Shown: piece by piece, positions 19,460-61,679 of the stretch
How positions within the stretch are numbered: position 1 is the first letter of the stretch
Layout of the letters: each line of letters starts with the position of its first letter
DNA from: Pseudomonadota bacterium
GTDB taxonomy: Bacteria > Bdellovibrionota_C > UBA2361
Reading direction: 5' to 3'
DNA length: 64,000 nucleotides
Assembly: GCA_046047875.1 (NCBI GenBank)
Contig: JBJOHD010000098.1
Location: 219 to 64,218, forward strand
Notes under the pieces: generated by a model
What the model was told of the DNA's origin: nothing
The model's input: the letters and a program-made list of their open reading frames with translations, nothing else
Database searches by the model: none
Translations under genes and position numbers: made by a program

Positions 19460-19548
19460 CCCGCCAAACACTCACTGCGCGCCACAGCAGGTTTTTTGCG
19501 ACGAGCGGGACTCTGTTCTCGTATCGTTTTACTGAAACGCGGTAATTC

Positions 19549-19995
19549 TTGGAGAAAGTTCGCTATAAAAAGTCTCTCGAAGGTTCTCGCCCCCCCCTCT
19601 TTCAAAGAGAGCATCGGACCGAGGAAGACACCGCGCTGCTGGATAGCCTCTTGAGTGACGGCCCCCCGACGAGCCGACCGCCGACGCGGCGCTGCTCTCC
19701 GACATCGGTCGGATCGACGGAGACTTCACGGCAGAGGAGCGTGCGTCGGCCGAAAAGGCGCTTGGCGCACCATTTCCAAACTCACCGATCGAACCGACTC
19801 AGCTCATCCGGAACGCCGCGGAAATTCTCAACTCGTTCCGAGGAGCTGAAACCTACCTGACAAAGATAAAGGCGAAGTATTCAACAGAGGAGCGACAAAG
19901 GATCTTTGAGGCGGTGGCGGCGGTTATCAAAGCCAACGGAGCCGAGAGCGGCGACGAGTCGTACCTCGAGAAGAAACTGAAGTTAATCCCCTAGA
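19549..19995 (+). pseudogene. TerB-like (tellurite resistance TerB/DUF533-type) gene interrupted by a frameshift at a C6 homopolymer
   Basis: Frame 1 (MEKVRYKK...LLDSLLSDG) runs into the C-tract at ~19667-19672. A second frame continues ...ADAALLSDIGRIDGDFTAEERASAEKALGA...TEERQRIFEAVAAVIKANGAESGDESYLEKKLKLIP*. This frame has no start codon of its own. The DG(D/E)..EE repeat composition is TerB-like. Confidence 0.4.
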
Positions 19996-20178
19996 AGACA
20001 CCGTCAGAAATCGAACCGCCTGACCCGACAAGGCGGACTTCATCCTGATGACTCAACCTCCTCTACCCCGAACGGCGCTCATCTCGAGATATCGTTGACC
20101 TATTCAACGAGCGCAACAAGCCGTGCGGCGAGATGATACGAGCGGCTCGAATCGATTAGGGATTTAAGAGCTGCCCGA

Positions 20179-20208
20179 TTGGACTTAGCCCCCCCCGATC
20201 GCTATTAT
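20179..20208 (+). promoter_or_regulatory. Sigma70-like promoter (TTGGAC-18-TATTAT) upstream of small peptide ORF A
   Basis: -35 TTGGAC at 20179-20184 and -10 TATTAT at 20203-20208 with an 18 nt spacer, ~60 nt upstream of the ATG at 20269. Confidence 0.35.
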
Positions 20209-20268
20209 AGTGGCGGAAGAGGTCAACTCGCTTTCCCATAGGTTTTTTCAATTTCATCGGAGGTTTCT

Positions 20269-20361
20269 ATGGTATTCGTAGTTGCGGCGATCCTGGCGTT
20301 TGGGGTGGGGCTCGTATGTTTCCTCATCGTCCATCTCCTCTGGCGTGAGAGTGAGCACTAG
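20269..20361 (+). CDS. Small hydrophobic peptide (30 aa) MVFVVAAILAFGVGLVCFLIVHLLWRESEH
   Basis: GGAGG Shine-Dalgarno 7 nt upstream (cggaggtttctATG); a single TM helix then a charged tail. A paralogous cassette lies at 25238-25351. It falls below the ORF-track size cut-off. Confidence 0.35.
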   Translation: MVFVVAAILAFGVGLVCFLIVHLLWRESEH

Positions 20362-20430
20362 CCCCCCTCAACGGAAGATCTGCCCCCTCTCGATGTCCCT
20401 AAAAAGGCATACAAGCGGTTGCACCTCTTC

Positions 20431-20479
20431 CCTCAATTCATTACTGCCCCTCAATTCATTACTGCCCCTCAATTCATCG
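20431..20479. repeat. Tandem direct repeat, 18 bp unit cctcaattcattactgcc x2 plus a diverged third copy
   Basis: Two exact units at 20431-20448 and 20449-20466, then the partial unit cctcaattcatcgc. It is intergenic, upstream of the MBOAT gene. Confidence 0.7.
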
Positions 20480-20654
20480 CAGGGGCTCGCCGGAACGGGA
20501 TCGACTACCGTTCCGAGCTAAGTCAAGTCTCATTCGCCTCACTGACGCCAACGCGCTGGACAGCGGCCTGCCACGATGCTGTGCGGCACTAGGTGAGTCT
20601 TCTCCGGCTGTGGCTCCCCTCGCCTTTCCTCTGGTATAGTCCCCCTCGCGCGGT

Positions 20655-22082
20655 ATGGTATTTAGCTCGTTCATCTTTCTCTTCTACTTCCTCCCGATAG
20701 TTTTCGGAGCGTACCTCCTCTGCCCTCGACCGCTTAAAAACCTGCTGCTCATCGGGGCGAGCCTCTTTTTTTACTCGTGGGGAGAGCCTCGCTTTATCGG
20801 CACCCTCCTTCTTCTCTGTGCGATCGAGTTCGTCTTAGCGCTCCTTATCGAGCGCAGTTCCCCCCGCGGAGCACGGGCGCCCCTCACCCTCTCCCTTATC
20901 ATCAACGTCGGAGCTCTGGGGTACTTCAAGTACGCTAACTTCTTTATGGGTGAGGTGAGCCGGGTAAGCGGCTGGCTTGGCCATGCACCGATCGAGTGGC
21001 AGAAGGTCATTCTCCCCATCGGGATCTCTTTCTTCACTTTCCATAAGATCAGTTACGTTGTCGACGTCTATCGGCGGATCCGCCCCGCATCGCGAAACCC
21101 GATCGACTTTCTCCTTTATATCCTTTTCTTTCCGCAGCTCATCGCTGGGCCGATCGTGCGCTATCACGAGATCGAAGATCAGCTCCGCTCCCGCCCCTTC
21201 AGCCTCGACGATATCTATCAGGGGCTCTCGCTTTTCTGCATCGGCCTCGCCAAGAAGGTGCTTGTTGCCGACGTGGTCGGCCATACCGCCGATCAGATAT
21301 TCGCCCTCAAGGCGAACGCACTCTCCCCTGAGCTTGCGTGGCTAGGGGTAATCGCCTACACCGCGCAGATCTACTACGACTTCTCCGGGTACTCCGACAT
21401 GGCGATCGGACTTGCACGGATGTTTGGGTTCCGATTTCCGCAGAACTTCGACCGCCCGTACCTCGCGACAAGCTTCACCGATTTCTGGCGGCGGTGGCAC
21501 ATGTCGTTTGGGCGGTGGATGCGAGAGTATCTGTACTATCCGCTCGGTGGTGCGCGGGTCGGTGTCGCTCGGCAGTATTTCAACCTCTGGGTAGTCTTCC
21601 TCTTCTCTGGACTGTGGCACGGCGCTCAGTGGACCTTCGTCCTTTGGGGGGTGTGGCACGGGATCTTCATGACCCTTGAGAAACTCTTCCTCGGGGACTA
21701 TCTCAAGAAGATCCCCCACGCGTTCCAAGTTCTCACGACCCTCTTTTTTGTCATGCTCTCCCGGGTGCTCTTCCGCGCCGAAGATCTCCATCATGCAGGG
21801 TATTACTTCAACCGTCTGGTCGACGGGAGCGGGGTAACCAAAGCTCCCCCGCTCGGCTCGGTGACCTCGGGGTACGAGATCTTTATGGTGGCGGTGGCAT
21901 ATCTTCTCTGCCTCTATCCGATCATCCCGGGGGTCTCAAAAGCGCTTGAGAGGATTCGTAACCTCTCCTCCCCGTTTGTTCGTGAGAGTGTATGGGCGAC
22001 TCAAGCTATCGTCCTCCTGGCTCTCTCAGCGGCGGCGATGGCGGGCACCGATTTTTCTCCGTTTATCTACTTTCAGTTTTGA
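20655..22082 (+). CDS. MBOAT family membrane-bound O-acyltransferase (AlgI/DltB/PatA-like)
   Basis: 475 aa polytopic protein; a conserved His within the ...WRRWHMSFGRWMREYLYYPLGG block is typical of AlgI/DltB. Confidence 0.8.
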   Translation: MVFSSFIFLFYFLPIVFGAYLLCPRPLKNLLLIGASLFFYSWGEPRFIGTLLLLCAIEFVLALLIERSSPRGARAPLTLSLIINVGALGYFKYANFFMGEVSRVSGWLGHAPIEWQKVILPIGISFFTFHKISYVVDVYRRIRPASRNPIDFLLYILFFPQLIAGPIVRYHEIEDQLRSRPFSLDDIYQGLSLFCIGLAKKVLVADVVGHTADQIFALKANALSPELAWLGVIAYTAQIYYDFSGYSDMAIGLARMFGFRFPQNFDRPYLATSFTDFWRRWHMSFGRWMREYLYYPLGGARVGVARQYFNLWVVFLFSGLWHGAQWTFVLWGVWHGIFMTLEKLFLGDYLKKIPHAFQVLTTLFFVMLSRVLFRAEDLHHAGYYFNRLVDGSGVTKAPPLGSVTSGYEIFMVAVAYLLCLYPIIPGVSKALERIRNLSSPFVRESVWATQAIVLLALSAAAMAGTDFSPFIYFQF

Positions 22083-22085
22083 TCG

Positions 22086-23261
22086 ATGGAGAAGCGCACG
22101 TTTACATACCGGTCACTCAAGGTAGCTTTCCTCTCCATCGTGGGGGCTTTCCTCTTTTTCCCCCTCGGAAACGATCTGCTCAACCTCGTGCCTGAAGATC
22201 CCCCCCACGGAATGGCGGGAGCGGCCCCTCCTCGTCCCTTCTCAATCGAGGGATTCTACAAACGGACGTGGCAGCGGAGCCTCGAACCCCGCGCGAAAAG
22301 GGACTCAGGACTTTGGACACCCCTGACTTTAATCGCTAACGACCTCTACTCCCGCCTCTTCGGCCAGATCGCCGCATTTCCGAACGGCAACGTCATGCAG
22401 GGAAACGCCCGGCACCTCATCCAAGGCGCCCATCTTCCCGCGATGAATCGGCGGAAGCCCAAAAAACTAAAAGAGCTCCCAGCTCGGATCGAACGGCTTA
22501 AGGAGCTTCAAGATCGGCTCAAAGCACGTGGGAAAAATCTCATCGTGCTTGTCAGCCCGAACGTTACCGAGATCTACCCTGAGGTAGTGCCGGAGATCTA
22601 TCTAGATCCAACTCGACATACCCGCCCACATCCTTTTGAGCGATTGAAGGTGCTCCTCGACAAGCACGGCATCACCTACATCGATACGGCTGAGACCCTT
22701 CGGCAGGCGAAAGCTGCGGGAGCGCCGAAACTTTTTCCCCCTTCGGGCTCCCACTGGAACGACCTCGGTTCGTGTTTGGCGCTAAAAGCAGCTAACGAGA
22801 AGCTGAAGTCGGTCGGCGGGCCAGCGCTCCGAGGATTTACCTGCGATGATGTGCGCTTTGAATCTCCCCCCCGCGATAAGGACCGGGATCTGGTGAAGAT
22901 CGCGAACGTCCTCACGCCGGAGCGTTTTGAGGAGCCGACGCCCTACGTTAATATCAGCTACACCGAACCTCCCCCCCCAGTTCAACCGACTGCGCTCCTT
23001 GTCGGCACGAGCTATCTCTTTGCGCTCGTCGACCATCTCTATGAGTGGGATCTGGCTAAAGATTCCCGGCTCTACTTTTACTTCAAACAGTGGCGGAAGG
23101 GGGGCGAGCGAAAGTTCTACATCGTGCGCCCCGAGAGGCTCGATTGGAGCGAGCTTCTTAGTCGCGACATCATCGTGGTCAACGTCGGTATCGGAAAACC
23201 CACCGCGATAGGCTACGGCTTTATCGAAGCAGCTCTTCAGTGGCTCCGAAGTAATCCCTAA
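22086..23261 (+). CDS. AlgJ/AlgX-like (DHHW/SGNH-like) O-acetyltransferase partner protein
   Basis: Immediately downstream of and co-oriented with the MBOAT gene; N-terminal TM anchor; FPPSGSHWNDLG motif resembling the AlgJ SHW catalytic region. Confidence 0.55.
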   Translation: MEKRTFTYRSLKVAFLSIVGAFLFFPLGNDLLNLVPEDPPHGMAGAAPPRPFSIEGFYKRTWQRSLEPRAKRDSGLWTPLTLIANDLYSRLFGQIAAFPNGNVMQGNARHLIQGAHLPAMNRRKPKKLKELPARIERLKELQDRLKARGKNLIVLVSPNVTEIYPEVVPEIYLDPTRHTRPHPFERLKVLLDKHGITYIDTAETLRQAKAAGAPKLFPPSGSHWNDLGSCLALKAANEKLKSVGGPALRGFTCDDVRFESPPRDKDRDLVKIANVLTPERFEEPTPYVNISYTEPPPPVQPTALLVGTSYLFALVDHLYEWDLAKDSRLYFYFKQWRKGGERKFYIVRPERLDWSELLSRDIIVVNVGIGKPTAIGYGFIEAALQWLRSNP

Positions 23262-23395
23262 TCTTTTGGGGGCGGCGCCGCCCGATCTCTAAAAAATAAA
23301 TCTGCATACTTTCAGCCTTCTAGAGCGGGTTAATGCTCCCGGTGGAGCACCGTTTCCGTAGGTGACTCATAACATCGGCGGGGTGGTCTAACGGG

Positions 23396-24235
23396 GTGGT
23401 CTCGCGCGCCCCAGGGGGTTACATGAGGTTATCTTGGCTCCGTTCAACGCTAGCATCACTTATCATCGCTCTGAGCTCGACCGCTCACGCCGAGTTCTCA
23501 TTCCCAGGAACAAGCCCCACAGGAGACCCGCCGAGCCTCGATCCTCGGTGCGAGGTCCTATCAGTGGAGGGTCCGTCTTTTGAATATTGGGTCAGCTACT
23601 CCGGCCCCTACGTTGGACCAGGCATCCCGTTCGATTTCTTTGCCTGTCCTTTTGGTCGAACTATCCTCCATCCGATCTTTTGTCTCGATGTAACGATGAT
23701 ATGCCCCAAGGCCGAGGCCCCGCACACCGAGCGACTCTGCTTTCACGCCGGCGGCAGCCCCGACGGAAGCCTCCAGATCTTTCCGAGTGATTATAGAAAG
23801 CCGAAGAGTGATCGAGGGACATTCTCTGTGCCTGGAGCTCCGAGTGGGATAAGCGTCGAGGGTTTCCTCCACTTCTGGGAATGGTACACCGCGAGAAGCC
23901 AGGACTCATTCGGGGGACGAAACTACTGCGCGTGGGGATCTGGAGACAACGACTCCCTGAACTGCGGGAGCTATTTTCTCCTCCTCGTAGCTAAGCTCTT
24001 CGGAAAAACCCCAGCAGAGATCCGCGCAATGATTCCACAACTCGGGCCATGTACCCATTTTTCGTGGGATCTATACGAGCCGCAATTCATCGAGGATCTC
24101 ACGCCGTTGCTCCTCATGCCGAATCCGAGTGGTCCTCCTGGGCCCGTCGTCACCCCCGCCGAATGCCTGGCTATCACCGAGCTCTCAACGGCGCAGATCT
24201 TTTCGACCCTCGATAGCGGACTTAAACTGAGATAA
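23396..24235 (+). CDS. Secreted hypothetical protein
   Basis: Signal peptide (LASLIIALSSTAHA), several Cys residues, no recognisable domain; follows the MBOAT/AlgJ-like pair. Confidence 0.45.
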   Translation: MVSRAPGGYMRLSWLRSTLASLIIALSSTAHAEFSFPGTSPTGDPPSLDPRCEVLSVEGPSFEYWVSYSGPYVGPGIPFDFFACPFGRTILHPIFCLDVTMICPKAEAPHTERLCFHAGGSPDGSLQIFPSDYRKPKSDRGTFSVPGAPSGISVEGFLHFWEWYTARSQDSFGGRNYCAWGSGDNDSLNCGSYFLLLVAKLFGKTPAEIRAMIPQLGPCTHFSWDLYEPQFIEDLTPLLLMPNPSGPPGPVVTPAECLAITELSTAQIFSTLDSGLKLR

Positions 24236-24246
24236 CTCGACCGATC

Positions 24247-24960: not shown

Positions 24961-25143
24961 AGATGCTCGCGTGAAGGAAAAAACAGCTCGCCGAGAATAA
25001 ATCAGCTCGCTCCTCCGGGCTATACCCTCAGTCTCAACACGAGGTAGTGGGCCACTTCACACGGGTTCGAATGAAGGTCTTTGCGGTGCCGCTATCACGG
25101 TTATTGAGGGAAAATTTTAGCGGAATTATGAGGTGCCGCCAAA

Positions 25144-25172
25144 TTGGCTTGGGCCACCCGACTCGCTATCAT
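25144..25172 (+). promoter_or_regulatory. Sigma70-like promoter (TTGGCT-17-TATCAT) upstream of small peptide ORF B
   Basis: -35 at 25144-25149 and -10 at 25167-25172; same architecture (cgcTATNAT) as the promoter at 20179-20208. Confidence 0.3.
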
Positions 25173-25237
25173 CGAGGCACGCAGAGGTGTTGTTCGGACG
25201 AGAAAGGTTTCCTTAATCGTATTCTACGGAGGTTTCG

Positions 25238-25351
25238 ATGGCTTTGCTGACACCGTTCATTTTTTTGAGCTTCATTGCGCTCTTTATTCTCTGTGTTTAC
25301 CTCCTCTGGGTGGTAGACCGGTTCCCGGAGCACAAGGACTCAGACGACTAG
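25238..25351 (+). CDS. Small hydrophobic peptide (37 aa) MALLTPFIFLSFIALFILCVYLLWVVDRFPEHKDSDD
   Basis: GGAGG SD (cggaggtttcgATG), nearly identical to the leader of the peptide at 20269; one TM helix plus an acidic tail; shared LLW motif. Confidence 0.35.
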   Translation: MALLTPFIFLSFIALFILCVYLLWVVDRFPEHKDSDD

Positions 25352-25971
25352 CGCGGAGAGCCCCGAGGCGATAGCAACACAAGCTTCGGGGCTCCGCGTA
25401 GCGACACAGGTGATTCAGCTTAGATTCCTTTTTAACAAGGTATGACAACCGATCCACCTCTGCCGCTCTTCACTTTGCCGGTGTATTTTCGCGGTTAGCC
25501 CCTCTCCCAGCACCCGGCAGCCAATCCGTCCCCCCTCCCCTTCGAGCTATTTTCAGTCACGTAAGCCGAGTCGGATGTATTTAGACGGCCGTAGCCGGGT
25601 GTGAGGGGATCACTTCACGATCAAACACCGACTCGAGCGATGTTGGGGCGCACCTACCAGGGGCAGCGGACCACCCAGGGTTAGGGATCAGAGGAGATCA
25701 CACCAAGGTCTAAGACGATAACCTCACCTTGAGCCGAAGGGCGTATCGGTGATGGTCGAGCGATTAGATTCCCCGCGTAACGAGACCTTGGAGGCCCCCC
25801 CGACTATCCCACCCCCGCTCTATCACCCGTCCCTCTACTCAATCGTGCGATCTGCGGCCCCGGATTTCGACACCACTACGTGTAGGACTCGGAGGGTATC
25901 GGCATTTGACCCGCCATCATTCGAGGCATACCTTACCGAAGAAGGGTTAATTCTTAATCGAAAGGTACCGC

Positions 25972-26208
25972 ATGGCTCCTCGAAGTAAAACGAAAGACCG
26001 CGACGTTACCCGAACGGTCACCCGCAAAACTTTTATTCGACAGCTTCGTCGCCTCGCTAACCGTCTTGAACGCGGGGAACGCTTCGCCGTGACGATAGGG
26101 AAGGAGCGCATCGCTCTGCCACGTGAGGTCGAATTTAGCATCGAACACGAGCGTGAGGCGGGAGCTACGGAAGAGCTCGAATTTCAGGTGCGGTGGCGGG
26201 GAAGATAG
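25972..26208 (+). CDS. Small protein resembling the amphi-Trp domain family
   Basis: 78 aa: basic N-terminus, then ERGERFAVTIGKERIALP...EFSIEHERE...EELEFQVRW, matching the characteristic amphi-Trp pattern (ERGE, IE.E, E.E..KW). GAAAGG RBS 7 nt upstream. Confidence 0.45.
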   Translation: MAPRSKTKDRDVTRTVTRKTFIRQLRRLANRLERGERFAVTIGKERIALPREVEFSIEHEREAGATEELEFQVRWRGR

Positions 26209-26251
26209 TCGAAGCAGGCCAGAGACCCTCCCGACTCCGCCACACTCCCAG

Positions 26252-28175: not shown

Positions 28176-29024
28176 CTATTTCATCAAAAGGAGGCTCAGT
28201 GCCATCACGAACATACCGGCACAGAGACCGAGGAGGCTATCGTGCCCCTTCCCGTAGGCGCGGCTCGTGGGCAAAAGTTCGTCAAGACTCACATACACCA
28301 TAATCCCCGCAACTCCCCCAAAAAGATATCCCATGATGTGCGATGGAATCCCCCCGTTATCACCACCAAGGAAAAATAGTATCCCCAGATATCCGAGCAG
28401 CGCCCCGAGCGGCTCAAAAAGCCCGCTCAGAAAGGAGTAGATAAACGCCTTACGGCGATTTCCGGTCGCGAAAAATATCGGCACCGAGACGCTCATTCCC
28501 TCTGGGATATTGTGAATGGCGATCGCGATGGCGATCGCTGCACCAACTTTTGGATCCTCAAGAGCGGAGAGAAACGTGGCCAGCCCCTCCGGAAAATTGT
28601 GGATGCCGATCGCGAGCGCTGTAAAAAGACCGACTCGAAAAAGTTTGTGATGATCGCCGTACGCAGGAGGAGCTTCTCCGTCTTTGTGGAGCGCCGCTGA
28701 GGCTGACTCGGACGGCATCTCGTGGGGGTTTTCAGCGGATGGAATAAGATTATCGATAAGAGCGATGAGCAGGAGTCCTCCGAAAAATGAGGCGACACCG
28801 ATCCAGGCTGACCAATAATCCCCATACTCCGCCCGAAGCGCGGCGGTCCCCTTCGGCATAATCTCCATAAACGAGACGTAAAGCATCACCCCGGCGGAGA
28901 AGCCTGTAGAGATCGAGAGAAATCGGTAACTCGAGCGCTTCGCGGCGAATGCGATAGCACTCCCGATCCCGGTCGCGAGTCCCGCAAAAAGGGTGAGGCC
29001 GAAGGCGAGAACGACGTTGCTCAT
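28176..29024 (-). CDS. ZIP family metal (zinc) transporter, ZupT-like
   Basis: HNFPEGLA and HNIPEGM motifs in TM helices; a His-rich central loop ([28 protein letters not shown]). Confidence 0.8.
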
Positions 29025-29220: not shown

Positions 29221-29281
29221 CTAGTCCCTCGACAAATAAGTTTTTTCACTCCGGCGGAGTGAAAAACTAACTCACCACTAG
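29221..29281 (+). repeat. MITE-like structured repeat, copy 1 (internally truncated)
   Basis: ctagtccctcgacaaataagttttttcactccggcggagtgaaaaactaact then joins directly to ccactag; it shares the 5' half and the last 7 nt with copies 2 and 3. Confidence 0.7.
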
Positions 29282-30070: not shown

Positions 30071-30194
30071 GAGGACTAGTCCTTCAACAAATAAGTTTTT
30101 TCACTCCTGCGGAGTGAAAAACTAACTGAGGACTAGTGGTGAGCATAAATTCTAGTACCTTGCAGGTGAATGAATTTAATGGTCGAACCACTAG
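30071..30194 (+). repeat. MITE-like structured repeat, copy 2 (full length, ~124 bp)
   Basis: Imperfect terminal inverted repeats (ACTAGTCCTTCAAC ... GGTCGAACCACTAG); an internal perfect 11 bp hairpin TTTTTCACTCC-tgc-GGAGTGAAAAA; a second inverted pair ATAAATTC...GAATTTAAT. Confidence 0.8.
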
Positions 30195-33132: not shown

Positions 33133-33248
33133 TCCTTCGACAAACGAGTTTTTTCACTCCCGCGGAGTGAAAAACTAACTCAGGACTAGTGGTGAGCATA
33201 AATTCTATTACCTTGCAGGTGAAAGAATTTAATGGTCGAACCACTAGT
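33125..33248 (+). repeat. MITE-like structured repeat, copy 3 (full length)
   Basis: Near-identical to copy 2, with hairpin loop cgc; it ends ...GGTCGAACCACTAGT. Confidence 0.8.
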
Positions 33249-61561: not shown

Positions 61562-61679
61562 TAGTGGTTCGACCATTAAATTCTTTCACCGGCAAGGTAA
61601 TAGAATTTATGCTCACCACTAGTCCTGAGTTAGTTTTTCACTCCGCGGGGGTGAAAAAACCTATTTGTCGAAGGGCTAG
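61562..61679 (-). repeat. MITE-like structured repeat, copy 4 (inverted orientation)
   Basis: The reverse complement aligns over ~118 bp with copy 3, including the hairpin (one G-T mismatch) and the TIR-like ends; 65 nt upstream of hldD. Confidence 0.8.

What the first reader, a model, noticed from the sequence alone, without database searches (positions are those of the whole stretch)
20179..20361. Unannotated small hydrophobic peptide gene (30 aa) with its own promoter and strong SD; one of two paralogous cassettes
A ~1.2 kb region without long ORFs contains TTGGAC-18-TATTAT, a ~55 nt leader, GGAGG, and ATG encoding MVFVVAAILAFGVGLVCFLIVHLLWRESEH. This is a single TM helix with a charged tail. 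The leader and SD (tcatCGGAGGTTTCtATGG) match the second cassette at 25144-25351 (tctaCGGAGGTTTCgATGG) at 17 of 19 positions, and the peptides share an LLW motif. Such peptides can be type I toxin-like proteins, small regulatory subunits of membrane complexes, or signal peptides. Both are invisible to a 60 aa ORF cut-off.
Basis: seen in the sequence. Interest (0 to 1): 0.65.

Follow-up and report, generated by a model that had tools for sequence, protein, structure and literature searches.

The report
Tiny membrane-peptide gene with end-paired mRNA
This is a real, stand-alone 30-codon gene for a one-helix membrane peptide, one of two copies in this genome, carried on a ~220-base mRNA whose two ends base-pair with each other; that layout is best known from bacterial type I toxin genes, but the function here is untested.

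Summary
The sequence features are all present: TTGGAC-18-TATTAT (20179-20208), GGAGG (20259-63) and ATG 20269..TAG 20361, encoding MVFVVAAILAFGVGLVCFLIVHLLWRESEH. A second cassette lies at 25144-25463.

Both ORFs are already called "hypothetical protein" in GenBank and IMG, so "unannotated" is not accurate.

The unit is larger than reported. The predicted 5' end of the mRNA (20215-27) pairs with a 3' element (20418-31), closing the transcript around the ORF. All four distinct cassettes found have this helix: two in the window and two terC-adjacent orthologues in relatives. It carries compensatory and G·U changes.

In 95%-identical relatives, the stretch from promoter to 3' arm diverges 1.5-2.4%, against 6-22% in the flanks.

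The peptide sequences evolve very fast. They keep only a hydrophobic helix and a short, net-acidic tail (codon-position identity 0.46/0.73/0.35).

There are no Pfam, NCBIfam or Rfam matches and no homologue among 1.84 billion representative proteins. It is not a leader of the MBOAT operon.

The best reading is a new, lineage-restricted family of small membrane-peptide genes with a hok/AapA1-like (type I toxin-like) mRNA architecture. No antisense antitoxin promoter was found, and the acidic tails are atypical for such toxins. A benign small membrane protein, possibly linked to TerC, remains a serious rival.

The parts
20179..20208 (+). Cassette 1 promoter: -35 TTGGAC (20179-84), 18-nt spacer containing an 8-C run, -10 TATTAT (20203-08)
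   Evidence: It aligns with the promoters of the other cassettes. There is one substitution against the 95% relative.
20215..20227 (+). 5' arm of the closing helix (GGAAGAGGTCAAC), starting at the predicted transcription start, 7 nt after the -10
   Evidence: It is compensatory to cassette 2 (A-U here, C-G there). The C20224T change in L084 keeps a G·U pair.
20238..20248 (+). Conserved leader motif ATAGGTTTTTT (A[A/T]AGGTTT core in all four cassettes), about 30 nt before the ATG; role unexplained
   Evidence: No consistent pairing partner was found.
20259..20263 (+). Shine-Dalgarno GGAGG, 5 nt before the ATG
   Evidence: Strong SDs are uncommon upstream of the other ORFs in the window.
20269..20361 (+). 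30-codon ORF MVFVVAAILAFGVGLVCFLIVHLLWRESEH: one hydrophobic helix plus the tail RESEH
   Evidence: Against L084 there are two synonymous changes and one conservative change. No Pfam or NCBIfam family matches.
20383..20395 (+). Candidate anti-SD CCCCCTCTCGATG, which pairs with CATCGGAGG (20255-63) in the minimum-free-energy fold of cassette 1 only
   Evidence: It is not reproduced in the other cassettes, so it remains an inference.
20397..20407 (+). A-rich 3'-UTR motif CCCTAAAAAGG, the counterpart of the CCTTTTTAAAAAGG-type palindrome in the other cassettes
   Evidence: 3'-module alignment.
20418..20431 (+). 3' arm of the closing helix (GTTGCACCTCTTCC): 13 bp with one bulged C against 20215-27
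   Evidence: Sequence divergence from the 95% relative rises sharply after this point.
25144..25172 (+). Cassette 2 promoter TTGGCT-17-TATCAT, back-to-back with a terC promoter-like site on the minus strand (25142-25114)
25181..25197 (+). Cassette 2 5' arms: GCAGAGGTG (25181-89) and TCGG (25194-97)
25238..25351 (+). Cassette 2 ORF, 37 aa: MALLTPFIFLSFIALFILCVYLLWVVDRFPEHKDSDD
   Evidence: Positional orthologues of 32 aa and 30 aa sit next to terC in L086 and L139. Codon-position conservation is 0.46/0.73/0.35.
25425..25463 (+). Cassette 2 3' module: palindrome-like TTCCTTTTTAACAAGG (25425-40) and 3' arms CCGA..CACCTCTGC (25449-63)
   Evidence: Divergence from L085 is 1.6% up to here and 10.8% beyond.

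Best explanation
The finding is one of two copies of a self-contained transcription unit, 20179-20431.

Shown:
- A sigma-70-type promoter sits upstream of an RNA predicted to be about 217 nt.
- The first 13 nt of that RNA base-pair with its last 14 nt. This closes the RNA around a strongly SD-driven 30-codon ORF.
- The ORF encodes a single-helix membrane peptide with a short charged tail.
- The closing helix, the promoter, two short leader and 3'-UTR motifs and the hydrophobic coding capacity are conserved across four diverged cassettes. The amino-acid sequence is not.

Inferred:
- The unit works like a hok/AapA1-type type I toxin mRNA. The end-to-end pairing buries the 5' terminus, stabilises the message and holds it in a compact, poorly translated fold.
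- The peptide is made only when the fold is opened or the 3' end is trimmed.
- The peptide then inserts into the inner membrane and perturbs it.

Whether an RNA antitoxin exists is unknown.
For: Gene reality:
- Promoter, SD and ATG are present.
- Gene callers found the ORF in three independent assemblies.
- Four distinct cassettes all keep a 30-37-codon ORF for a hydrophobic helix plus a short, net-acidic tail.
- Comparing cassette 2 with L086, second codon positions are 73% identical against 35% for third positions. dN/dS is about 0.3 over the helix.
- Against a 95%-identical relative, cassette 2 diverges 1.5-1.8% from leader to 3' arm, the same as the terC coding sequence (1.7%). The flanking intergenic DNA diverges 6-11%.
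- Cassette 1 shows 6 substitutions in 254 nt, against about 22% upstream.

Closing helix:
- It appears in the minimum-free-energy fold of every cassette folded on its own.
- RNAalifold recovers it, with C-G changing to A-U in helix 1 and three pair types in helix 2.
- 91% of cells are paired, against 32-52% for slid controls. 0 of 500 shuffles reach the covariation score.
- The fold z-score is -4.55.
- It is the only long-range pairing shared by all four cassettes.
- Two G·U pairs (L086 helix 1; L084 C20224T) fit the + strand RNA and would be A·C mismatches on the other strand.
- The 5' arm begins at the predicted transcription start in both window copies.

Toxin-like traits:
- 5'-3' long-distance interactions together with SD/anti-SD elements are the descriptors used to recognise type I toxin mRNAs (PMC8594479).
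- AapA1 is likewise a 30-aa peptide controlled by mRNA folding (PMC5416894).
- The cassette is stand-alone, duplicated, and absent from the syntenic site in L086.
- It is deleted, with its 3' module left behind, in L095.
- A strong SD is uncommon among the ORFs of this window.
Against: - No antisense promoter shared between cassettes was found by consensus scans on the opposite strand.
- SD sequestration is predicted for cassette 1 but is not consistent across cassettes.
- There is no intrinsic terminator after the 3' arm.
- The C-terminal tails are net acidic (RESEH, DRFPEHKDSDD, TVEDEE, ELIDADR). From general knowledge, most characterised type I toxins end in basic residues.
- No known toxin family matches in Pfam, NCBIfam or Rfam.
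- Only four distinct sequences support the covariation.
- No expression or toxicity data exist.
Confidence: 0.45

Rival explanations
1. A benign small membrane protein, a modulator or accessory subunit in the manner of MgtS, CydX, KdpF or AcrZ. It may act on the adjacent TerC-family transporter (cassette 2) or within a TerB/TerC-related membrane stress context. Under this reading the 5'-3' helix only stabilises a short mRNA.
For: - Cassette 2 lies divergently next to terC in the window, in L085, in L086-88 and in L139/140/145. In L095 a remnant sits at the same place.
- Cassette 1 lies directly downstream of a TerB-domain gene.
- The acidic C-terminal tails resemble those of MgtS and CydX (recalled from general knowledge, not tested here).
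- No antitoxin was found.
Against: - Where TerC is 95% identical (L139), the peptide is essentially unalignable with cassette 2. This is hard to reconcile with a sequence-specific partner.
- terC homologues at 78-86% identity in other genomic contexts lack the cassette.
- The cassette is dispensable in L095.
- It is never co-transcribed with terC.
- No small-protein family HMM matches.
- A conserved, covarying end-to-end helix is not a described feature of such genes, to my knowledge.
Confidence: 0.33
2. A structured non-coding RNA whose ORF is incidental.
For: The RNA modules (5' arm, leader motif, 3' module) are better conserved at the nucleotide level (about 50-63%) than the ORF (33-45%).
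Against: - All four diverged cassettes keep an ATG behind a strong SD, an open frame of 30-37 codons, a 20-25-residue hydrophobic run and a short, net-acidic tail.
- Conservation follows codon position, in the order 2nd > 1st > 3rd.
- In L084 a repeat element inserted exactly at the stop codon and regenerated it.
Confidence: 0.07
3. The inverted ends are DNA-level terminal repeats of a small mobile or recombining element that carries the ORF, not an RNA helix.
For: - There are two copies within 5 kb, one of them inside a variable island between rsmE and terC.
- The minus strand folds almost as well as the plus strand, z = -4.44.
Against: - The arms differ between copies but stay complementary within each copy. 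This is not how transposase-bound ends behave.
- The wobble changes fit only the + strand as RNA.
- The promoter lies outside the repeat, and the 5' arm starts at the predicted transcription start.
- Cassette 2 is at the same locus in three lineages.
- No further copies were found in 64 kb plus about 150 kb of related loci.
Confidence: 0.05
4. A leader peptide, 5' UTR or riboswitch controlling the downstream MBOAT/AlgX operon.
For: It is on the same strand, 294 nt upstream of the MBOAT start.
Against: - Relatives L086-88 carry the same MBOAT-AlgX genes without the cassette. A 60-aa hydrophilic ORF occupies the site instead.
- MBOAT has its own extended -10, TGGTATAGT, ending 14 nt before its ATG. 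A similar TATAGT is present in L086.
- Conservation collapses after 20431, and a copy-number-variable 18-nt repeat follows.
- The paralogue and its orthologues have no co-oriented downstream operon.
- No Rfam match was found.
Confidence: 0.03

Closest known systems
hok/Sok-type type I toxin-antitoxin loci (Enterobacteria)
   Same: - The small hydrophobic peptide gene is a stand-alone unit with a strong promoter.
- The full-length mRNA is closed by pairing of its 5' end with a 3'-terminal element (general knowledge; LDI as a family descriptor in PMC8594479).
- The loci are multi-copy and patchily distributed.
   Different: - No sequence or HMM similarity.
- No overlapping leader ORF of the mok type.
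- No antisense promoter detected.
- The peptide is shorter and has an acidic tail.
- A refolding switch after 3' trimming is not demonstrated.
aapA1/IsoA1 of Helicobacter pylori
   Same: A 30-aa peptide whose synthesis is governed by mRNA folding, including a 5'-3' long-distance interaction (PMC5416894 and PMC6733600, listed).
   Different: - AapA1 is lysine-rich and basic (general knowledge), whereas these peptides are acidic-tailed.
- IsoA1 is a clear cis-antisense RNA to the 5' UTR. No equivalent promoter was found here.
- The lineage is unrelated and there is no sequence similarity.
tisB/IstR-1 (ribosome standby site)
   Same: The leader carries extra SD-like elements upstream of the true SD (AGAGGT at the 5' end, AAGGTTT in mid-leader). 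These could act as standby sites. This is an inference from sequence only.
   Different: - No LexA box and no divergent sRNA was identified.
- A standby function is untested.
Small membrane-protein modulators (MgtS, CydX, KdpF, AcrZ)
   Same: They are 30-50 aa with a single helix, and several have acidic C-termini (recalled from general knowledge). Cassette 2 is conserved beside a transporter-family gene (terC).
   Different: - No HMM match.
- The cassette is not in an operon with its presumed partner.
- The peptide sequence is not conserved even where TerC is 95% identical.
- It has an elaborate conserved mRNA architecture.

Membership tests
Type I toxin-antitoxin system | Small (<60 aa) hydrophobic peptide with a predicted transmembrane helix | tested here: met
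   Peptides of 30, 37, 32 and 30 aa, each a hydrophobic run of 20-25 residues plus a short tail.
Type I toxin-antitoxin system | Toxin mRNA folded by a 5'-3' long-distance interaction or another cis element that restrains translation | tested here: met
   The closing helix appears in all four minimum-free-energy folds and carries covariation. Its effect on translation is not shown.
Type I toxin-antitoxin system | Shine-Dalgarno sequence sequestered by an anti-SD in the primary transcript | tested here: inconclusive
   Pairing probability of the SD is 0.86 in cassette 1 and 0.35-0.80 in the others, with a different partner in each. No shared pairing was found.
Type I toxin-antitoxin system | Antisense or trans-acting RNA antitoxin with its own promoter | tested here: inconclusive
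   No shared sigma-70-like promoter on the opposite strand. A single weak site occurs in cassette 2 only. A consensus scan cannot exclude an RNA.
Type I toxin-antitoxin system | Toxicity of the peptide on expression | not testable with these tools
   Needs an experiment.
Known type I toxin families (Hok, Ldr, TisB, Fst, Ibs and others) and their Rfam RNAs | Significant match to the family HMM or covariance model | tested here: not met
   Pfam and NCBIfam give nothing relevant at E<=10. Rfam gives nothing.
Small membrane-protein regulators or subunits (CydX, KdpF, MgtS, AcrZ) | Match to the family model | tested here: not met
Small membrane-protein regulators or subunits (CydX, KdpF, MgtS, AcrZ) | Conserved linkage or co-transcription with the partner complex | tested here: inconclusive
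   Cassette 2 is adjacent to terC but divergent from it in three lineages. Cassette 1 is not adjacent to terC, and terC occurs without the cassette elsewhere.
Leader peptide or riboswitch of the MBOAT operon | Element conserved together with the operon and continuous with it | tested here: not met
   The same operon in L086-88 lacks the element. MBOAT has its own -10 before its start, and conservation breaks after 20431.
Sec signal peptide | Hydrophobic segment followed by a cleavage site and a mature domain | tested here: not met
   The ORF ends 5-13 residues after the helix.

The most novel reading that the evidence does not exclude
These cassettes are a previously undescribed family of self-restrained toxin mRNAs in an uncultured lineage. 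A 5'-terminal SD-like sequence (AGAGGUG) is masked by a 3' element that resembles the 16S anti-SD (CACCUCUGC). The message would therefore be silent without any antisense antitoxin, and would be activated by 3' trimming or stress to release an acidic-tailed membrane peptide. Its conserved placement beside terC, and for the paralogue beside terB, may tie it to metal or membrane stress.
Probability: 0.2. Interest if true: 0.7.

Novelty: new member of a known kind. Interest (0 to 1): 0.5.

Why it matters
Small membrane peptides are systematically under-annotated, and type I toxin-like modules are known almost only from cultured Proteobacteria, Firmicutes and Helicobacter. This finding provides several things:
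- A sequence-orphan family from an uncultured lineage, with no homologue among 1.84 billion representative proteins.
- A clean natural covariation record for an end-to-end mRNA helix.
- A case in which RNA modules are conserved while the peptide keeps only its physical character.
- A natural deletion and a natural insertion that delimit the unit.

If the peptide is toxic, this extends the hok/AapA1 design principle to a new lineage and to acidic peptides. If it is benign, it shows that this mRNA architecture is not diagnostic of toxins. That matters for automated type I TA prediction, which relies on this feature.

Tried and rejected
- Genome scan anchored on the MBOAT protein.
- Direct peptide search.
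- Fused 67-aa query made of both peptides. It returned only cassette 2 itself; cassette 1 does not score significantly even against itself.
- Exhaustive phmmer search with the 37-aa peptide. It returned itself plus two spurious repetitive long proteins.
- Metagenome DNA pattern AGAGGT..AGGTTT..GGAGGTTNNNATG. It gave 43 hits, none followed by a comparable small hydrophobic ORF, so they are judged chance matches.
- Viral contig pattern. Two chance hits inside coding regions.
- blastn against plasmids and phages. No match.
- Rfam at gathering and permissive thresholds. Nothing relevant.
- Pfam and NCBIfam scans of all four peptides. Nothing relevant.
- Search for further copies with nhmmer profiles of the 5' and 3' modules in the window and 21 related loci. 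None found.
- Search for a conserved SD/anti-SD pairing or any other shared pairing beyond the closing helix. None found.
- Search for conserved antisense promoters or intrinsic terminators. None found.
- Looser leader motif regex. One extra hit in the window (40313-40267, minus strand), with a non-hydrophobic product, judged chance.

Full report
OBSERVATION

- TTGGAC at 20179-20184, an 18-nt spacer and TATTAT at 20203-20208.
- GGAGG at 20259-20263.
- ATG at 20269 and TAG ending at 20361.

The ORF encodes MVFVVAAILAFGVGLVCFLIVHLLWRESEH. The consensus scan finds this as the only sigma-70-like promoter on either strand of 20000-20700.

The second cassette is equally real. It has TTGGCT-17-TATCAT at 25144-25172, GGAGG at 25228-32, and an ORF at 25238-25351 encoding MALLTPFIFLSFIALFILCVYLLWVVDRFPEHKDSDD.

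The resemblance between the two is not limited to the SD:
- The two align from about 25 nt upstream of the -35 through the start codon.
- The shared promoter 30-mer matches only these two sites in the window, with none in 100 shuffles. The pattern was derived from these sites, so this shows specificity rather than independent significance.
- A profile of the promoter plus leader hits only these two places in the window.

- The 19-mer identity is 16/19, not 17/19.
- The "empty" 1.2 kb contains a frameshifted TerB-domain gene at 19549-19994. It is intact at 142 aa in a relative.
- The ORFs are not unannotated in public data. They are GenBank MFM1847386.1 and MFM1847391.1, "hypothetical protein RL417_860/_865", from a MAG labelled Pseudomonadota bacterium. 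They were also called in IMG and Logan assemblies.

RELATED SEQUENCES

No close relative of the neighbouring MBOAT gene exists among 185,579 species-representative genomes; the best hit is 47% identical. I therefore anchored on two other neighbours, RsmE and TerC, and fetched their contigs. This gave four groups:

1. A 95%-identical strain carrying both cassettes (L084, L085).
2. A group with RsmE 80% and TerC 87% identical (L086-L090). It has the same rsmE-MBOAT-AlgX-terC synteny. A cassette sits next to terC and encodes MAVLLPILYVGVFILFALMAYLICCITVEDEE. There is no cassette upstream of MBOAT; a 60-aa hydrophilic ORF lies there instead.
3. A group with TerC 95% identical (L139, L140, L145). 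A pectate-lyase-like gene replaces the MBOAT genes. A cassette next to terC encodes MWGIVVFLVFALLLGFFILSVIIELIDADR.
4. L095, with TerC 93% identical. The promoter, leader and ORF are deleted but the 3' part of the cassette remains.

More distant terC homologues (78-86% identical) sit in other genomic contexts and lack the cassette.

So the terC-adjacent cassette 2 is the ancestral, positionally conserved copy. The reported cassette 1 is a diverged paralogue. It is present only in the window lineage, inside a variable island between rsmE and terC.

THE UNIT IS BIGGER THAN THE ORF

Comparing the four distinct cassettes shows four conserved pieces:
- The promoter.
- A 9-nt element immediately after the -10: GCAGAGGTG, or GAAGAGGT in cassette 1.
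- An A(A/T)AGGTTT motif about 30 nt before the ATG.
- A 3' module about 60-110 nt past the stop codon. It is a CCTTTTTAAAAAGG-like palindrome followed by CACCTCTGC, or ACCTCTTC in cassette 1.

The last element is the reverse complement of the first.

In cassette 1, 20215-20227 (GGAAGAGGTCAAC) pairs with 20418-20431 (GTTGCACCTCTTCC), giving 13 bp with one bulge. In cassette 2, 25181-89 plus 25194-97 pair with 25449-63.

Evidence that this helix is real:
- Each RNA folded on its own puts this helix in its minimum-free-energy structure.
- The cassette 1 RNA folds at -85 kcal/mol, z = -4.55 against dinucleotide shuffles.
- RNAalifold recovers the helix.
- Helix 1 shows C-G changing to A-U between cassettes 2 and 1.
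- The short second helix uses different sequences in each cassette: CAAC/GTTG, TCGG/CCGA, TCAGC/GCTGA and ACAGC/GCTGT.
- On the MAFFT alignment, 91% of cells are paired against 32-52% when the partners are slid. 0 of 500 shuffles reach the covariation score. With only four sequences this is supportive, not conclusive.
- Two wobble changes keep pairing only if the + strand is read as RNA. These are G·U in L086 helix 1, and C20224T in L084, which gives U·G.
- The 5' arm starts at the predicted transcription start, 7-9 nt after the -10, in both window copies.

It is the only long-range pairing shared by all four RNAs.

SELECTION

Between the window and its 95% relative, cassette 2 shows the following divergence:

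| Segment | Divergence |
|---|---|
| Leader | 1.5% |
| ORF | 1.8% |
| 3' UTR up to the 3' arm | 1.6% |
| terC coding sequence | 1.7% |
| terC-proximal intergenic region | 6.0% |
| Sequence just after the 3' arm | 10.8% |

Cassette 1 has 6 substitutions in 254 nt from promoter to 3' arm, against about 22% in the intergenic DNA upstream. Within its ORF there are two synonymous changes and one conservative V2A change.

In L084 a 109-nt repeat element has inserted exactly at the stop codon. The CACTAG duplication leaves the ORF and both helix arms intact.

Across the deeper comparisons the ORF nucleotides are nearly saturated at 33-45% identity, while the leader and 3' module keep 50-63%. The ORF is still clearly coding:
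- Every version keeps SD-ATG, an open frame of 30-37 codons, a hydrophobic run of 20-25 residues and a short, net-acidic tail.
- Comparing cassette 2 with L086, codon-position identity is 0.46/0.73/0.35, with dN/dS about 0.3.

WHAT IT IS NOT

It is not a leader or riboswitch of the MBOAT operon:
- The same operon exists without it in L086-88.
- MBOAT has its own extended -10, TGGTATAGT at 20632-40, ending 14 nt before its ATG.
- Conservation ends at 20431, where a copy-number-variable 18-nt repeat begins.
- The paralogue and its orthologues have no co-oriented downstream operon.

It is not a signal peptide, because there is no mature domain.

It matches no Pfam, NCBIfam or Rfam family. It has no homologue among 5.8 billion clusters by word search or among 1.84 billion representatives by exhaustive phmmer. 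Nothing similar was found in plasmids, phages or viral contigs.

MECHANISM

Shown: this is a stand-alone small gene whose predicted mRNA is closed by a covarying 5'-3' helix, and it encodes a fast-evolving single-helix peptide.

Inferred: the closest known design is the type I toxin mRNA of the hok and aapA1 kind. 5'-3' long-distance interactions and SD/anti-SD elements are the structural descriptors used to recognise such mRNAs (PMC8594479). AapA1 is also a 30-aa peptide controlled by mRNA folding (PMC5416894).

Features that fit this reading:
- Duplication, absence from syntenic sites and decay in close relatives.
- Rapid peptide divergence.
- A long, conserved UTR architecture.
- A perfect SD, where strong SDs are uncommon among the ORFs of this window and many appear to start a few bases after a TATA-like -10.

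Features against membership:
- I found no antisense promoter shared by the cassettes.
- SD sequestration is predicted for cassette 1, where CATCGGAGG pairs with CCCCCTCTCGATG at 20383-95. It is not consistent across cassettes.
- There is no intrinsic terminator.
- The tails are acidic rather than basic.

I therefore say it works like a type I toxin mRNA with confidence of about 0.45, and I do not file it as a type I TA system.

The main rival, at about 0.33, is a benign small membrane protein. That reading is suggested by the conserved position of cassette 2 beside terC and of cassette 1 beside a TerB-domain gene. It is weakened because the peptide is unalignable even where TerC is 95% identical, and because L095 has lost the cassette.

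NOVELTY

This is a new, lineage-restricted member of a known kind: small hydrophobic-peptide genes on structured mRNAs.

Two conserved single-stranded motifs remain unexplained: AGGUUUUU in the leader and the A-rich palindrome in the 3' UTR.

Noticed in passing
window 19549-19994: A TerB-domain gene is interrupted by a frameshift at a C-run near 19655-19662. In the 95% relative L084 it is intact (142 aa, Pfam TerB, E = 7e-11). The same frameshift is present in three assemblies that are identical to the window.
   Followed up: partly
window 30080-30188, 33133-33241, 61567-61674 (minus strand), partial copy 29225-29281; L084 4453-4561: A 109-nt, strongly folding repeat element resembling a MITE, 93-96% identical between copies and flanked by (C)ACTAG. 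In L084 a copy has inserted exactly at the stop codon of the 30-aa ORF and regenerated the stop.
   Followed up: partly
window 20430-20477: A perfect 18-nt tandem repeat (CCCTCAATTCATTACTGC, 2.7 copies) starts at the last bases of the 3' helix arm. The relative L084 has one unit fewer.
   Followed up: partly
window 20632-20657 and many other gene starts (for example 28176-29024 minus, 35796, 38633, 42346, 45012): Many ORFs have a TATA-like -10 only about 10-15 nt before the ATG and no Shine-Dalgarno. This suggests widespread leaderless or very short-leader mRNAs in this organism. GGAGG-type SDs are uncommon. The analysis used longest-ORF starts, so it is approximate.
   Followed up: no
window 19460-24246 compared with L086, L095, L139, L145: The interval between rsmE and terC is a variable island. 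It holds TerB(fs)-cassette-MBOAT-AlgX-279aa in the window, 60aa-MBOAT-AlgX-292aa in L086, one pectate-lyase-like gene in L139/L145, and nothing in L095.
   Followed up: partly
window 20190-20197, 19586-19593, 20364-20369: Long poly-C runs occur, including 8 C inside the 18-nt spacer of the cassette 1 promoter. Run lengths differ between the window and L084. Slippage could change promoter spacing or reading frames (phase variation). This is untested.
   Followed up: no
window 25114-25172: The terC promoter-like site (minus strand, TTGGCG-17-TAAAAT) and the cassette 2 promoter are back-to-back. Their -35 boxes form the palindrome GCCAAATTGGC (25138-25148).
   Followed up: no
window 25476-26250: About 0.8 kb downstream of cassette 2 has only weak gene calls (78, 64 and 39 aa; no Pfam hit for the 78-aa ORF at 25752-25988). 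It diverges 6-11% from the 95% relative, faster than the neighbouring genes.
   Followed up: partly
window 20238-20248, 25203-25212, 20397-20407, 25425-25440: The conserved leader motif A(A/T)AGGTTT and the 3'-UTR palindrome CCTTTTTAAAAAGG-like element have no consistent predicted pairing partner. With AGAGGT at the 5' end, the leader carries three SD-like elements, which could be standby or protein-binding sites.
   Followed up: partly
L086 10949-11131: At the position of cassette 1, relatives carry a 60-aa highly charged, Q/E/R-rich ORF (MSSFGDPSWQEWQERQEAERR...). It has no Pfam hit and is preceded by a similar AAGGTTTTT motif about 30 nt before its ATG.
   Followed up: no
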